Virus record (IMG/VR): IMGVR_UViG_2872703611_000002
Source of the DNA: a virus
Taxonomy: Duplodnaviria > Heunggongvirae > Uroviricota > Caudoviricetes
Strand: one strand, 5' to 3'
DNA length: 53,140 nt
The number at the start of each line of letters is the position of its first letter. Positions within the stretch are counted from its first letter, which is position 1. Of the stretch, positions 45,201 through 48,200 are shown one piece after another. A program made the position numbers.

Positions 45201-48200
45201 GGCGTTTTTTACGCCATGGACCATAGTGTTTTGATCTTCTTGATCTGTATCTTTATCTGTATCTTTATCTGTCGTGACTCGTCGTGACATGTGCGTGACA
45301 TTTCGTGACGCGCCGTGACAATTGCCATTTTGTTCCCGCTTTCTTTCCCTCTCTCGCTGCGCCCTCTTGCGCTCTGCAGGAGATTTTGCGGTTTGCGAAA
45401 TATTGCCGTTGTCCTCTTTAAGCACCTGGCGTTTTTCCCATCCAGTGATTAAATCACCATCAAGTACCCGCCCCTGCATCGTCTGCAAAATTGAATCAAT
45501 TACCTCTTCTGTCACGTCGAGCGCACTTGCCAAATCTTCTGTCGTGACATCAATGTGACCTCGCGTGACATTTCGTGACGCGCTCACCAGGAGGTGGATA
45601 TACACTGCCATCACTGTTGCAATTGGCTGCCCTGACACCCTGGCAATTGTTCGCCACTTAGGGTCATTTGGCATGTCATGCCATAATCTGAGCCAAGCGT
45701 TAGCCATACTCACCTCTTCTGATACCGAATCTTTTTACTCACGAGTTGCCGGAAGCGATTCGATATGGCTATTGTCAGTCAATGTACTGCCACAGCATTT
45801 CCTGCCGGGCCACCACGGTTCATCTGATTGAAACCGGCGATTGCCACTGCGACAAAATCATCAGCGTCTCTCACCAGTCGCTCCCGCGTCTCCACCAGCT
45901 CCCGAAAATAAGCTGAACTGTGGCTGCGCATTCTGGCCACCAGCAAAGGTGGCATTGCCTTTTCGATCGCTGGTAACAACGCCTGAATTTTTTCAACTGC
46001 ATCAGGGGTGTCTTTCTCTACCCAGCGGAAAATTTTCTGGGTATTGCGAGCCAGGGCTTCCGGATGGCTGTCGTCATACAGTTCCGGGAACGTCATTCCC
46101 AGCTCGAAATACGCTTTGGTAATTTTCGCAGCCGGTACTTTTTCGCCGTCCGGATGCGCCCAGGCATTCATCGCCATGCGGATGTGTTCATGCTTGATTT
46201 TCATGAATCATTCTTTCCTTCGTTCGAGGTGCTATCCTGCTTCTTGTAAAGTTCTGGGTTGTATTTCAATTCACCGTTAGTAATTTCATCCAGTTCCATT
46301 GCGCGAAGTTTGGGAATAACTGCTTTCCACCGCACAACAGCCACATGTGAAATTCCAAGAGCCTCAGCTACTAGTCGCTTTTTTTTGAAATAGCGCAGAA
46401 CATCATCTTTGAACATAAAACTCTCCTGTTATTTCGAGCAGGATGGTAACAATAGTTACATAGCAATGTCAACCATAGCAACATCACTTGGTAGTAACAT
46501 TGGTTACATGAAAAACACTATCAGCGAACGTATTCGGAATCGTCGAAAAGACGTTGGATTAACCCAACAGCAGGTTGCGAAAGCAATCGGCATATCTCGT
46601 GTATCCGTAACAAAATGGGAAAATGGCTCTTCAAAACCTGACGGTGAGAATTTGCATCTACTGTCAAAATTGCTTTCCAAATCTCCTGAATGGATTCTTT
46701 ATGGAAAGGACGGTCACGATAAAACCGATGATCTGCGTCTGAATCAGTATCCTTACATTAGTGACAACATCGCCCGGTTGCCCGTTTTAACGTGGGAACA
46801 GGCTGGTTATTGGGATATGAGTTGTCCAGTAACCGAGATTCCTGGCATTAAGAATTGGGTTGATGTCATGACAAAAACCGCTGAAAACTCTTTTTTATTG
46901 CATGTTGAGGGAGATGCGATGACAAACTCTAACGGCCTCCCAACCATCCCCGATGGATCTACCGTGCTGATCACACCATGCTCAAGTAACATTAGAGAAC
47001 TGGTGGGAAAAATAATCTTAATCCAATTGGAAGGAACGCCAAACGTAACACTAAAAAAAGTTGCGATTGACGGACCAAACATCTATCTGTTGTCACTGAA
47101 TCCGCTTTACAAACCCATCGAACTGAATGGTGGTTACACCATTAAAGGTAAAGTTTCACAAATACATCAATACTTAGACTGAGTCAGAACCCGCATTCAT
47201 TGCGGGTTTTTCACGCTCTCAAATGTACCTTTTGCAACATCGTATTGACTCGAAAGGTAACTCTTGTTACCTTAACGGCATACCAACCCACCCCGCCCCA
47301 CAGAATGCAGGGCAATACTTCGAGTTACCAGGCAGTGGTCAGGGGTTAAGTAGCCAGCCCGAGGCGTAAGAACATGACGGCAGGGTTCAACTTTAATAAC
47401 TATGCAGCAGGTTTTTGTTCCGCTACCCCGGCGTTAAGGGGAAATGAGGTCAGCATGGATACTATCGATCTTGGCAACAGCGAATCTCTGGTATGTGGCG
47501 TGTTCCCCAACCAGGACGGTACGTTCACCGCGATGACGTATACCAAAAGCAAAACGTTTAAAACCGAAAATGGTGCCCGTCGCTGGCTGGAAAGAAACTC
47601 AGGTGAGTGATATGGATTTCGACACAATCATGGAAAAGGCTTACGAAGAATACTTCGAAGGTCTTGCCGAAGGCGAAGAAGTTCTCAGCTTCAGTGAGTT
47701 TAAACAGGCGCTTTCCAGTTCGGCAAAATCTAACGGCTGATAAGCGAAACAGCACCGCGAGGAATCAGTATGCAGAAACGAGAACCCGTCATCATCGCGC
47801 CAGACTATACCGATGATGAACTTTATGAGTGGATGCACCAGAAAATTAATGCAGCGCAGGATCTGAAATGGGCCAATGAAGCCAGGGCTAAGCAGGCTGA
47901 AAATCTGTCCGCTCTGGAGCAGGATATCACCAATCTGGAAAAAGCAGCGGCATTAAGCATTGCCAGAATGATTACATACCCGCGTTAATAGCTAACCAAC
48001 GAAGCTAAGGTTGGTAATTAAGGAGTTCTCCACGGGTGAGGTGGAGTGCGTGCGCCGGACACGGGTGAGCATCCGGCACTGACAGTTTACTGAAAGGATA
48101 TTTCCCTGAAAAGTCAGACCATAACGCGAAAGCGCACGGCGAGGTAGCTGGTTCATAGATAGCCTGTTGTTAAATTTTCGTCGACCGTGCGCTTCCGGTT

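What the first reader, a model, noticed from the sequence alone, without database searches (positions are those of the whole stretch)
45272..45580. Two iteron clusters (CGTGAC repeats, 10-11 bp period) inside the O-like gene
Five and four tandem copies of a (T)CGTGAC(A) unit with helical-repeat spacing lie within the replication initiator ORF, as lambda ori iterons lie inside O. The first cluster is preceded by a TATCTTTATCTG duplication. This is a candidate origin, with a second cluster about 270 bp away that is unusual.
Basis: seen in the sequence. Interest (0 to 1): 0.45.

Follow-up and report, generated by a model that had tools for sequence, protein, structure and literature searches.

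The report
Two-part prophage replication origin inside initiator gene
Two arrays of a short repeated DNA word inside a prophage replication gene are almost certainly that phage's replication origin, and the same two-array layout, with the word changing in both arrays together, recurs in related genes from about 80 bacterial species, including over a third of complete E. coli genomes.

Summary
CGTGAC (GTCACG on the gene's sense strand) occurs five times at 45273-45319 and four times (one with a mismatch) at 45543-45579, at 10-11 bp spacing. Both arrays lie in a minus-strand initiator gene (44637-45707).

The repeats act at DNA level. The word is read in all three frames. In 27 related loci, conserved residues inside the upstream array use essentially one codon (0.38 bits against 1.90 outside).

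In 82 homologous loci, 45 carry both arrays, and 44 of those have the same word in both: GTCACG, CGAACG, GTAACG, GTGACG or GCAACG. The mid-gene array abuts the least stable 40-mer of the region (45229-45268), and that AT-rich, purine-skewed tract is conserved in the family.

Best reading: a two-part iteron origin. The mid-gene array plus the AT-rich tract forms the core. The array 260 bp upstream, inside the DNA-binding-domain coding region, is a conserved auxiliary binding site for the same initiator.

The protein is not a lambda O homologue. It is a "replisome organizer"-type N-domain with a DnaT-like C-terminal tail and no adjacent helicase loader. I class it as a new variant of a known kind. 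No binding or replication experiment exists, and I found no paper on it.

The parts
44637..45707 (-). Replication initiator gene (356 aa from the ATG at 45707; the ORF as listed starts at a GTG at 45713). It has an N-terminal winged-helix-like DNA-binding domain (aa 1-95), a basic helix (aa 110-127), a linker, and a C-terminal domain ending in a DnaT-like tail.
   Evidence: ORF listing. Full-length match to phrog_3729 'replication initiation protein', E 1e-256. No Pfam family at E<=0.01. PF09681 Phage_rep_org_N matches end to end but below threshold (15.7 vs 23.3 bits). AlphaFold2 model of aa 1-128 has pLDDT 81. Residues 333-356 match the C-terminus of DnaT structures 6aep, 2ru8 and 9zbt_D.
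45273..45319 (-). Five exact GTCACG units on the sense strand at 10/11-bp spacing, coding aa 130-145 of the linker (CHGASRNVTHMSRRVT).
   Evidence: The word falls in frames 1, 2, 0, 2, 0. An equivalent array is present in about 70 of 82 homologous loci.
45229..45272 (.). AT-rich, purine-skewed tract (purines on the sense strand) directly downstream of array B in gene direction: the candidate DNA unwinding element. It holds three 12-bp repeats (45238-45272) and two GATC sites (45233, 45242).
   Evidence: GC is 0.325 at 45220-45279. The least stable 40-mer of the gene and of 44100-46450 starts at 45229 (dG -43.4 vs gene mean -57.3, sd 3.7; 99th percentile of the window). Across 70 loci, the 40 nt after array B have GC 0.36 vs 0.57 for the gene and 75% purines; 63 of 70 are at least 10 points lower.
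45543..45579 (-). Units GTCACG, GTCACG, GTCACA, GTCACG at 10/10/11-bp spacing, coding aa 43-55 (ASRNVTRGHIDVT): the end of helix 3 plus the loop before the helix-turn-helix.
   Evidence: Synonymous sites are frozen in 27 loci: V47 GTC 26/26, T48 ACG 26/26, G50 GGT 26/26, V54 GTC 26/26. In 44 of the 45 loci that carry both arrays it uses the same word as array B.
45511..45516 (+). Single inverted copy of the unit, 63 nt after the first unit of array A, coding D-V-T of the conserved ALDVT.
   Evidence: It sits at the same offset in many GTCACG-class loci and, as CGTTGC, in two GCAACG-class loci. The Val codon is GTG in 22/22 loci.
46443..46472 (-). pR-like promoter (TTGACA-18-TACCAT with an extended TG) upstream of the cro / cII-like / initiator / lygF operon. 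It would send transcription through both arrays.
   Evidence: Consensus scan only. Gene identities.

Best explanation
The region is the replication origin of a lambdoid prophage, embedded in the gene of its own initiator.

Proposed mechanism:
1. The initiator's N-terminal winged-helix-like domain binds head to tail to the 10-11-bp-spaced (T)GTCACG units. That spacing puts successive units on roughly one face of the helix.
2. Binding at the five-unit mid-gene array (45273-45319) builds a nucleoprotein complex that helps open the adjoining AT-rich tract (45229-45272).
3. The four-unit array 260 bp upstream (45543-45579), plus one inverted unit (45511-45516), binds the same protein and acts as an auxiliary site. 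Most likely it loops or wraps the intervening ~200 bp, which would raise occupancy and cooperativity at the core.
4. Transcription from the pR-like promoter runs through both arrays.
5. No helicase loader is encoded next to the gene. The C-terminal tail copies the C-terminus of host DnaT, so helicase loading is inferred to go through host primosome proteins.

Shown here: the repeats, their DNA-level selection, their linkage to the N-domain, the concerted change of word in both arrays, and the conserved AT-rich tract.

Inferred: binding by the initiator, unwinding, looping, and the route of helicase loading.
For: 1. Statistics. Five exact copies fall in 47 bp and 3+1 in 37 bp, with no other cluster in 53 kb.

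2. Not a peptide repeat. The word is read in all three frames.

3. Synonymous sites are frozen. Codon entropy is 0.38 bits inside array A against 1.90 outside, in 27 loci sharing 51-99% protein identity with the window over the best matching segment (Mann-Whitney p 4.6e-5; identities).

4. Family-wide conservation. In 82 loci from about 80 species, the commonest 6-mer of the first 600 nt is nearly always an xxxACG word at 10-11-bp steps. It reaches 13.8 per kb there against 0.53 per kb in the flanks.

5. Concerted change. 45 loci have both arrays, and 44 of them carry the same major word in both: GTCACG 22, CGAACG 11, GTAACG 4, GTGACG 4, GCAACG 3.

6. Linkage to the N-domain, not to neighbours. 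Partner genes vary: none, DnaC-like, DnaB-like, or primase-helicase. A gene with a different N-domain (mEp460) carries different 23-bp repeats plus a 12-bp AT-rich repeat at the same mid-gene position.

7. Unwinding element. The least stable 40-mer abuts array B, and the AT-rich purine-skewed tract is conserved in 63 of 70 loci.

8. Layout. The order iterons, then AT-rich tract, in the middle of the initiator gene matches lambda (PMC7466680) and SPP1 oriL (PMC6316719, PMC5737612).

9. The module works in real phages. Near-identical copies sit in isolated phages Tritos and Evi, again with no loader gene.
Against: - No experiment shows binding, unwinding or origin activity for this family, and I found no paper on it.
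- Homology of the N-domain to a proven origin binder is not established. PF09681 is below threshold, hhalign against SPP1 G38P finds nothing, and Foldseek gives only weak winged-helix hits with E > 0.2.
- Roughly 16-23 of the more distant loci lack array A, so it is not essential everywhere.
- Gene conversion between the two arrays could contribute to their concerted change.
- The role assigned to array A (auxiliary, looping) is a guess among several.
- The loci are phylogenetically related, so counts of loci overstate the number of independent events. At least four concerted word switches are implied.
Confidence: 0.75

Rival explanations
1. Both arrays bind the initiator, but the upstream array (45543-45579) is a negative control element rather than part of the initiating structure. 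It could titrate initiator, pair ('handcuff') with array B of the same or a sister molecule, or block transcription or translation of the initiator's own gene for autoregulation, as extra iterons do in iteron plasmids.
For: - Array A lies inside the 5' part of the initiator's own coding region, downstream of the promoter, where bound protein could impede RNA polymerase.
- It has no AT-rich tract of its own: GC is 0.43-0.50 downstream of it.
- It is dispensable in some distant relatives.
- Handcuffing and control iterons are established for plasmids (PMC5397158, PMC3401445).
Against: - Nothing in the sequence separates positive from negative roles.
- A lytic phage origin gains little from copy-number limitation.
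- The apparent helical register between arrays A and B (Rayleigh R 0.42-0.46 at 10.0-10.25 bp) fits cooperative looping on one DNA molecule at least as well.
Confidence: 0.2
2. The repeats are binding sites for some other protein, such as a host factor or the neighbouring cII-like or Cro-like regulators, and not for the initiator.
For: No binding data exist. Cro-like and cII-like regulators are encoded immediately upstream.
Against: - The arrays always sit inside this N-domain's coding sequence, whatever the neighbours or hosts (Enterobacteria, Pseudomonas, Bordetella, Ralstonia, Sphingomonads, Acidobacteria).
- The word changes among hosts of one group and is shared across distant hosts, which a host factor would not explain.
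- No third cluster occurs in promoter regions within 2 kb.
Confidence: 0.04
3. The repeats are a by-product of coding: a duplicated peptide motif (ASRNVT...VTT occurs twice), or a neutral relic of an internal duplication kept alike by gene conversion, with no DNA-level function.
For: The two arrays encode similar peptides (SASRNVTRGHIDVTT and GASRNVTHMSRRVTT) and share a 21-bp identical stretch.
Against: - The hexamer is read in three frames within each array.
- Third codon positions are invariant inside the array and free outside it.
- The exact 10-11-bp period is kept through five word classes down to about 35% protein identity.
- Array A codes a lower-confidence loop and array B an unmodelled, variable linker.
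Confidence: 0.02
4. The repeats act in the mRNA, for example as binding sites for an RNA-binding regulator or as translational pausing signals.
For: They lie in a transcribed coding region, all in sense orientation.
Against: - A 10-11-nt period matches the DNA helical repeat and has no RNA rationale.
- A conserved inverted copy exists.
- There is no Rfam match.
- An AT-rich tract follows the array, as in known origins.
Confidence: 0.02

Closest known systems
Bacteriophage lambda ori within gene O (and Stx-phage variants with six iterons)
   Same: The origin lies in the middle of the initiator gene at the boundary between the DNA-binding and partner-binding halves. Same-orientation initiator-binding repeats are followed, in gene direction, by an AT-rich tract. 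The gene sits in the pR operon after cro and cII, so transcription crosses the origin (PMC7466680).
   Different: - The protein is not a lambda O homologue (no PF04492 hit).
- The units are 10-11 bp with a 6-8-bp core and no internal dyad. Lambda's iterons are about 19 bp and bent (from memory and PMC7466680).
- There is a second array 260 bp upstream, inside the DNA-binding-domain coding region.
- No P-type loader gene follows; the next gene is lygF/Ren-like.
Bacillus phage SPP1 oriL within gene 38 (replisome organizer G38P)
   Same: An initiator without an AAA+ domain, called a replisome organizer, binds direct repeats ('AB boxes') embedded in its own gene next to an AT-rich unwinding element. 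It also binds a second set of the same repeats (oriR) elsewhere (PMC6316719, PMC5737612). NCBI names the present family 'phage replisome organizer'.
   Different: - Homology is unproven: PF09681 is sub-threshold and hhalign finds nothing.
- SPP1's second site is about 13 kb away and is a separate origin with its own unwinding element. Here the second array is 260 bp away in the same gene and has none.
- SPP1 encodes its own loader and helicase.
Staphylococcal pathogenicity island (SaPI) origins
   Same: They use very short (5-6 nt) iterons recognised by a winged-helix domain of the initiator, arranged in two sets (PMC9371898).
   Different: - SaPI iterons lie downstream of rep, not inside it.
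- They flank the AT-rich region and point in opposite directions. Here both arrays point the same way and lie on one side of the AT-rich tract.
- The SaPI initiator is itself a helicase.
Phage P4 ori and crr (from memory, not checked here)
   Same: Two separated clusters of the same short repeat, both bound by the initiator and both needed in cis, are thought to interact by looping.
   Different: P4's clusters are about 4.5 kb apart, the initiator (alpha) is a primase-helicase, and the sites are not inside the DNA-binding-domain coding sequence.
E. coli DnaT (primosomal protein I)
   Same: The last 24 residues (…VNHISEPDNEIPPGFRG) match the DnaT C-terminus. The DnaT C-terminal domain docks on PriA and filaments on ssDNA (PMC13377028).
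   Different: Only the tail matches (NCBIfam 19 bits vs a 201-bit cut-off). The rest of the protein is unrelated and carries a sequence-specific N-domain.

Membership tests
Lambda-type origin (ori-lambda / O protein) | Initiator homologous to lambda O (Pfam Phage_rep_O) | tested here: not met
   The Pfam scan of the whole protein gives no family at E<=0.01. At E<=10 only PF09681 and a Crp HTH appear for the N-half.
Lambda-type origin (ori-lambda / O protein) | Four to six iterons of about 19 bp, each with internal symmetry | tested here: not met
   The units are 10-11 bp apart with the core (T)GTCACG and no dyad.
Lambda-type origin (ori-lambda / O protein) | Iterons in the middle of the initiator gene, followed by an AT-rich tract | tested here: met
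   Array B lies at codons 130-145 of 356. The least stable 40-mer starts directly after it.
Lambda-type origin (ori-lambda / O protein) | P-type helicase loader gene immediately downstream | tested here: not met
   The next gene is DUF977 / Ren-like lygF. The order is the same in phages Tritos and mEp460.
Replisome-organizer origins (SPP1 G38P / oriL type) | N-terminal domain belongs to Pfam PF09681 Phage_rep_org_N | tested here: inconclusive
   The alignment runs end to end (residues 5-123 on profile positions 1-119 of 121) but scores 15.7 bits against a cut-off of 23.3, E 0.015. Matches to PHROG replisome-organizer families are weak (E 5e-6 and 1.5e-4). hhalign against G38P finds no match.
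Replisome-organizer origins (SPP1 G38P / oriL type) | Direct repeats inside the organizer's own gene next to an AT-rich unwinding element | tested here: met
   and across the family.
Replisome-organizer origins (SPP1 G38P / oriL type) | The organizer binds the repeats and the fragment supports replication | not testable with these tools
   This needs EMSA or footprinting and a plasmid origin assay.
Iteron-controlled origins in general | Several same-orientation repeats linked in cis to the initiator gene, with repeat sequence and initiator lineage changing together | tested here: met
   All units are in sense orientation. Five word classes follow N-domain lineages, and 44 of the 45 loci with both arrays carry the same word in both.
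DnaT (primosomal protein I) | Full-length match to the DnaT equivalog model | tested here: not met
   NF002770 scores 19.2 bits against a cut-off of 201, and only residues 335-358 match. PDB matches are limited to the last 21-24 residues.

The most novel reading that the evidence does not exclude
The upstream array may do more than bind initiator. It encodes the one loop of the DNA-binding domain (aa 43-56) that differs consistently between word classes. Outside that loop, the only class-discriminating columns are aa 100-104. If this loop helps read the repeat, then the recognised DNA and the code for part of the recognising surface are the same nucleotides. A change of origin specificity would then alter target and reader in one stretch of DNA. 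That could explain why a binding array is kept inside the domain's own coding sequence, and how five specificity classes arose in lock-step in both arrays.
Probability: 0.08. Interest if true: 0.85.

Novelty: new variant of a known kind. Interest (0 to 1): 0.55.

Why it matters
This origin segment is present in 2076 of 5426 complete E. coli genomes, including O157:H7 prophages as an 82% identical variant. It is annotated there only as a coding sequence. I found no paper on it.

It gives a concrete, testable origin for a very common class of lambdoid prophage replication module that works without its own helicase loader. It also provides a natural series of five iteron "alleles" for studying how initiator-origin specificity evolves.

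The conserved second array inside the DNA-binding-domain coding region is a clear case of overlapping protein and DNA-binding codes, with synonymous sites frozen.

Practically, the arrays can mark origins and replication-incompatibility types in prophage annotation. They may also explain why assemblies often break in this gene.

Tried and rejected
- **Peptide-repeat explanation.** Rejected, because the word is read in three frames and codons are frozen.
- **Homology to SPP1 G38P.** hhalign of the family alignment against the single G38P sequence found nothing. Pfam PF09681 is only sub-threshold.
- **Fold search of the N-domain model against the PDB.** No hit below E 0.25; only generic winged-helix regulators appeared.
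- **IMG/VR scan.** It returned 80 near-identical E. coli prophage copies, useless for divergence. The one-genome-per-species collection gave the informative set.
- **Unrestricted independent-best-5-mer comparison of the two regions.** It was confounded by shifted words and by the (GATAMA)n tract. I replaced it with a chain search for xxxACG words. That pattern was chosen, so one search is the unbiased result.
- **Conserved hairpin after the AT-rich tract, as in lambda's palindrome.** The window has a 13-bp-stem hairpin at 45193-45223. The family shows no clear excess: 6.7 against 5.8 matched pairs.
- **Third array or second origin.** None in the window or within 2 kb in 41 loci.
- **Rfam.** No match.
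- **Literature.** Seven searches found no description of this family's origin.
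Full report
**1. What is in the sequence**

The + strand carries exact CGTGAC at 45273, 45283, 45294, 45304 and 45314. It also carries exact copies at 45543, 45564 and 45574, with a one-mismatch copy at 45554 and a single inverted copy at 45511-45516.

The window holds 38 copies on both strands against 23.65 expected, and none of 100 shuffles reached 38. From the rate outside the gene, five copies within 47 bp anywhere in 53 kb has a probability of about 5e-8. There is no other group of three or more copies in the window.

Next to the first cluster are three copies of a 12-bp unit (TCTT[G/T]ATCTGT, 45238-45272). The two clusters also share a longer similarity: 39 nt at 72% identity, including an exact 21-mer.

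**2. The gene and its neighbours**

Both clusters lie in a minus-strand ORF, 44637-45713. The likely start is the ATG at 45707, which follows a GAGG Shine-Dalgarno sequence and matches the annotated start in phage Tritos.

Reading along the minus strand, the layout is:
- a pR-like promoter at 46472-46443
- a P22-Cro-like gene
- a cII-like/YdaT gene
- this gene
- a DUF977 / Ren-like lygF gene
- an IS3-family element

A CI-like S24 repressor is divergently transcribed.

The protein matches phrog_3729 'replication initiation protein' end to end (E 1e-256) but no Pfam family at E<=0.01. At permissive thresholds the N-terminal 160 aa align end to end with PF09681 (N-terminal phage replisome organiser), but below its cut-off (15.7 vs 23.3 bits).

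The last 24 residues match the C-terminus of DnaT structures (NCBIfam). So the gene is O-like in place and role, but it is not a lambda O homologue.

Near-identical modules occur in isolated phages (Tritos 97.6%, Evi 96%), again with lygF and no helicase loader downstream.

**3. The repeats act at DNA level**

On the sense strand the unit is (T)GTCACG. Within each cluster it falls in frames 2,0,1,0 and 1,2,0,2,0. It is therefore translated as SR, VT, GH, VT and CH(G), SR, VT, SR, VT. A peptide repeat cannot produce this pattern.

I then took 27 loci of the GTCACG class, sharing 51-99% protein identity with the window over the best matching segment. I compared codon use at conserved four- and six-fold degenerate residues.

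| Residue in array A | Codon | Loci |
|---|---|---|
| V47 | GTC | 26/26 |
| T48 | ACG | 26/26 |
| G50 | GGT | 26/26 |
| V54 | GTC | 26/26 |
| T55 | ACG | 25/26 |

Mean codon entropy inside array A is 0.38 bits (8 sites). The 27 conserved sites outside it average 1.90 bits (Mann-Whitney p 4.6e-5).

The one free position inside the array (R49, third base) is a spacer base between units. The Val codon of the inverted copy is GTG in 22/22 loci. Both sets of sites share the same phylogeny, so relatedness does not explain the contrast.

**4. The two-array layout is a family trait and the word changes in concert**

A tblastn search with the N-terminal 159 aa found diverged relatives in Aeromonas, Pseudomonas, Ralstonia and uncultured phages. 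In each, a hexamer is repeated at 10-11-bp steps at the same two places.

| Source | Word | Array A + array B exact copies |
|---|---|---|
| Aeromonas pAEv1818 | GTCACG | 3 + 3 |
| Pseudomonas phi1 | GTCACG | 4 + 4 |
| Uncultured podovirus | CGAACG | 3 + 5 |
| Ralstonia Firinga | GCAACG | 5 + 4 |

A scan of one genome per species gave 80 further loci. With no pattern assumed, the commonest 6-mer of the first 600 nt is nearly always an xxxACG word with copies in both regions. It occurs 5-12 times there, against 2-6 for the top word of the flanking 600-nt controls.

A chain search for xxxACG words at 9-12-bp steps found arrays of three or more in both regions in 45 of 82 loci. In 44 of those the major word is the same in both: GTCACG 22, CGAACG 11, GTAACG 4, GTGACG 4, GCAACG 3. 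The exception, L146, has hybrid arrays. That implies at least four switches of the word, each carried through both arrays.

The class word occurs at 13.8 per kb in the first 600 nt and 0.53 per kb in the 2-kb flanks. No third array exists in 41 loci.

About 16-23 of the more distant loci have only the mid-gene array. That array is therefore the universal part.

**5. Linkage to the N-domain**

Genes downstream of the initiator differ among loci. There is none in the window, Tritos or mEp460. Aeromonas has a DnaC-like gene, Pseudomonas a primase-helicase, and Ralstonia a DnaB-like gene. The arrays are constant wherever this N-domain is present.

Phage mEp460 shares only the C-terminal tail with the window and has a different N-domain. 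It carries five or six 23-bp dyad-containing repeats (CATCnGGnCATTTTGACCnGATG) plus three 12-bp AT-rich repeats at the equivalent mid-gene position.

This modular pairing of N-domain and repeat type is what an initiator-iteron pair predicts. It argues against a host factor or a neighbouring regulator as the binding protein.

**6. The unwinding element**

GC falls to 0.325 at 45220-45279. The least stable 40-mer of the gene, and of the whole 44100-46450 operon, starts at 45229. Its dG is -43.4 against a gene mean of -57.3 (sd 3.7), which puts it in the 99th percentile of the window.

This tract abuts array B on its downstream side in gene direction, the same order as in lambda. Over 70 loci, the 40 nt after array B average GC 0.36 against 0.57 for the gene, with 75% purines on the sense strand. 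In 63 of 70 the drop is at least 10 points.

In many loci the tract is a (GATAAA/GATACA)n run coding D/K/T/E-rich peptide. In the window it contains two GATC sites. From memory, it resembles the GATC-initiated 13-mers of oriC; I did not test this.

**7. Structure context**

An AlphaFold2 model of residues 1-128 (46-sequence alignment, pLDDT 81) gives:
- three helices
- a loop at 46-55
- a helix-turn-helix at 56-77 with a beta hairpin, which is winged-helix-like
- a disordered stretch at 98-106
- a basic helix at 110-127

Foldseek against the PDB gives only weak winged-helix regulator hits. Array A codes the end of helix 3 and the loop, where confidence is lower. Array B codes the linker after the basic helix. 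Both are places where the protein can tolerate DNA-imposed sequence.

The protein columns that best discriminate the three closely related word classes are the iteron-coded loop (aa 45-56) and aa 100-104.

**8. Mechanism proposed**

Shown here: two arrays under DNA-level selection, tied to the N-domain, co-varying, and next to a conserved easily melted tract.

Inferred:
- The N-domain binds the units head to tail on one helical face.
- The complex at array B opens the AT-rich tract.
- Array A, together with the inverted unit, binds the same protein and cooperates with B, probably by looping about 200 bp.
- Transcription from pR crosses the origin, as in lambda.

On looping: distances from the last A unit to the first B unit range from 147 to 278 bp. 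They show a roughly 10-bp ladder (Rayleigh R 0.46 at 10.0 bp and 0.42 at 10.25 bp, n = 47). The loci are related, so this is only suggestive.

On helicase loading: the module has no loader and ends in the DnaT C-terminal motif. The DnaT C-terminal domain docks on PriA and filaments on ssDNA (PMC13377028). I therefore infer that helicase loading uses host primosome proteins. This is the weakest step of the proposal.

The main rival keeps initiator binding but makes array A a negative-control or autoregulatory site. Sequence alone cannot separate the two roles.

**9. Comparison with known systems**

- Lambda. The layout matches ori-lambda: iterons plus an AT-rich tract in the middle of the initiator gene (PMC7466680).
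- SPP1 oriL. Here a replisome organizer binds direct repeats within its own gene next to an unwinding element, and a second set of repeats exists elsewhere (PMC6316719, PMC5737612).
- SaPI origins. These use 5-6-nt iterons read by a winged-helix domain, arranged in two sets (PMC9371898).

This origin differs from all three in four respects:
- The units are short and spaced at the helical period.
- The second array lies 260 bp upstream, inside the DNA-binding-domain coding sequence, and has no unwinding element of its own.
- Both arrays point the same way and lie on one side of the AT-rich tract.
- The initiator has a DnaT-like tail and no loader gene.

Membership in the lambda O family fails. 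Membership in PF09681 is inconclusive.

**10. Novelty and importance**

Seven full-text searches found no description of this origin. The library lacks many subscription papers, so an older description cannot be excluded.

The 421-bp segment occurs in 2076 of 5426 complete E. coli genomes. It is annotated only as 'phage replisome organizer', 'hypothetical protein', 'DNA-binding protein' or 'DnaT-like ssDNA-binding domain-containing protein'.

I rate it a new variant of a known kind. The finding is ordinary in principle, since it is an origin inside an initiator gene. What is not ordinary is the conserved two-part design, the concerted five-class variation, and the frozen codons inside a DNA-binding domain's own coding sequence.

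Noticed in passing
window 44637-44708 (last 24 codons of the initiator gene): The C-terminal tail …QRCVNHISEPDNEIPPGFRG matches the extreme C-terminus of DnaT (PDB 6aep, 2ru8, 9zbt_D). The same tail ends initiators that have unrelated N-domains (mEp460, PhiR5_2). In the window, Tritos and mEp460 no helicase loader gene follows; PhiR5_2 has a DnaC-like gene downstream. This suggests the phage copies a host primosome contact.
   Followed up: partly
window 45012-45020, 45036-45044, 45108-45116, 45132-45140: Four copies of (G)AATCGGCTTC at spacings of 24, 72 and 24 bp, all in one frame, coding (E/K)ADS in the linker between the AT-rich tract and the C-terminal domain. Three similar copies occur in phage PhiR5_2 (L002 2873-2986). 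I could not decide whether this is a peptide repeat or a second kind of DNA site.
   Followed up: partly
window 45193-45223: A 13-bp-stem hairpin (TGGTTCGTGGCGT / ACGCCATGGACCA, 5-nt loop) sits just beyond the AT-rich tract, reminiscent of the palindrome at the edge of ori-lambda (from memory). Across the family hairpins are barely above control (6.7 vs 5.8 paired bases), so it may be specific to this lineage.
   Followed up: partly
window 42901-44072: An IS3-family element (102-aa orfA at 42901-43209 overlapping a 288-aa orfB at 43206-44072) on the + strand, about 100 bp beyond the end of lygF. In phages Tritos and mEp460 other genes follow lygF, so the prophage may be disrupted here.
   Followed up: no
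L001 (phage mEp460_ev081) 3510-3678: An initiator with a different N-domain carries five or six 23-bp dyad-containing repeats (CATCnGGnCATTTTGACCnGATG) next to three 12-bp AT-rich repeats (TATTCTCTGTAG), at the same mid-gene position. It looks like a second, lambda-style iteron type using the same gene architecture and C-terminal tail.
   Followed up: partly
L146 (MAG, Pseudomonadota) nt 100-200 and 315-420 from codon 1: This is the only locus where the two arrays differ in major word. Array A mixes three CGAACG with three GTGACG units, and array B has GAGACGC and GTGACGC units. It may be a recombinant or an intermediate between specificity classes.
   Followed up: partly
L005 (Pseudomonas phage phi1, KT887557.1) 2468-3400: The 310-aa homologue carrying both arrays is not annotated as a gene in the deposited record. 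The stretch between the 2305-2511 CDS and 'replication protein P' is left empty.
   Followed up: no
protein search: Many database entries for this gene are 'partial', and their clusters hold hundreds to over a thousand members (for example P0010 with 1121 and P0020 with 963). E. coli draft assemblies therefore often break inside this gene, probably because several prophages per genome share it (up to 4 places per genome).
   Followed up: no
window 45295-45322 (+ strand): A sigma-70-like match (GTGACA-16-GACAAT, 9 of 12) is formed by the iterons themselves, antisense to the gene. It is a consensus match only. The region has no excess of promoter-like sites (2 found against 3.4 expected).
   Followed up: no
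47 loci with both arrays (window plus L004-L167): The distance from the last unit of array A to the first unit of array B falls on a roughly 10-bp ladder (168, 179, 188-192, 198-203, 208-209, 217-220, 224-231, 238-242, 247-250, 261), although coding indels come in threes. This suggests the two arrays are kept on the same helical face. The loci are not independent, so it is not proven.
   Followed up: partly
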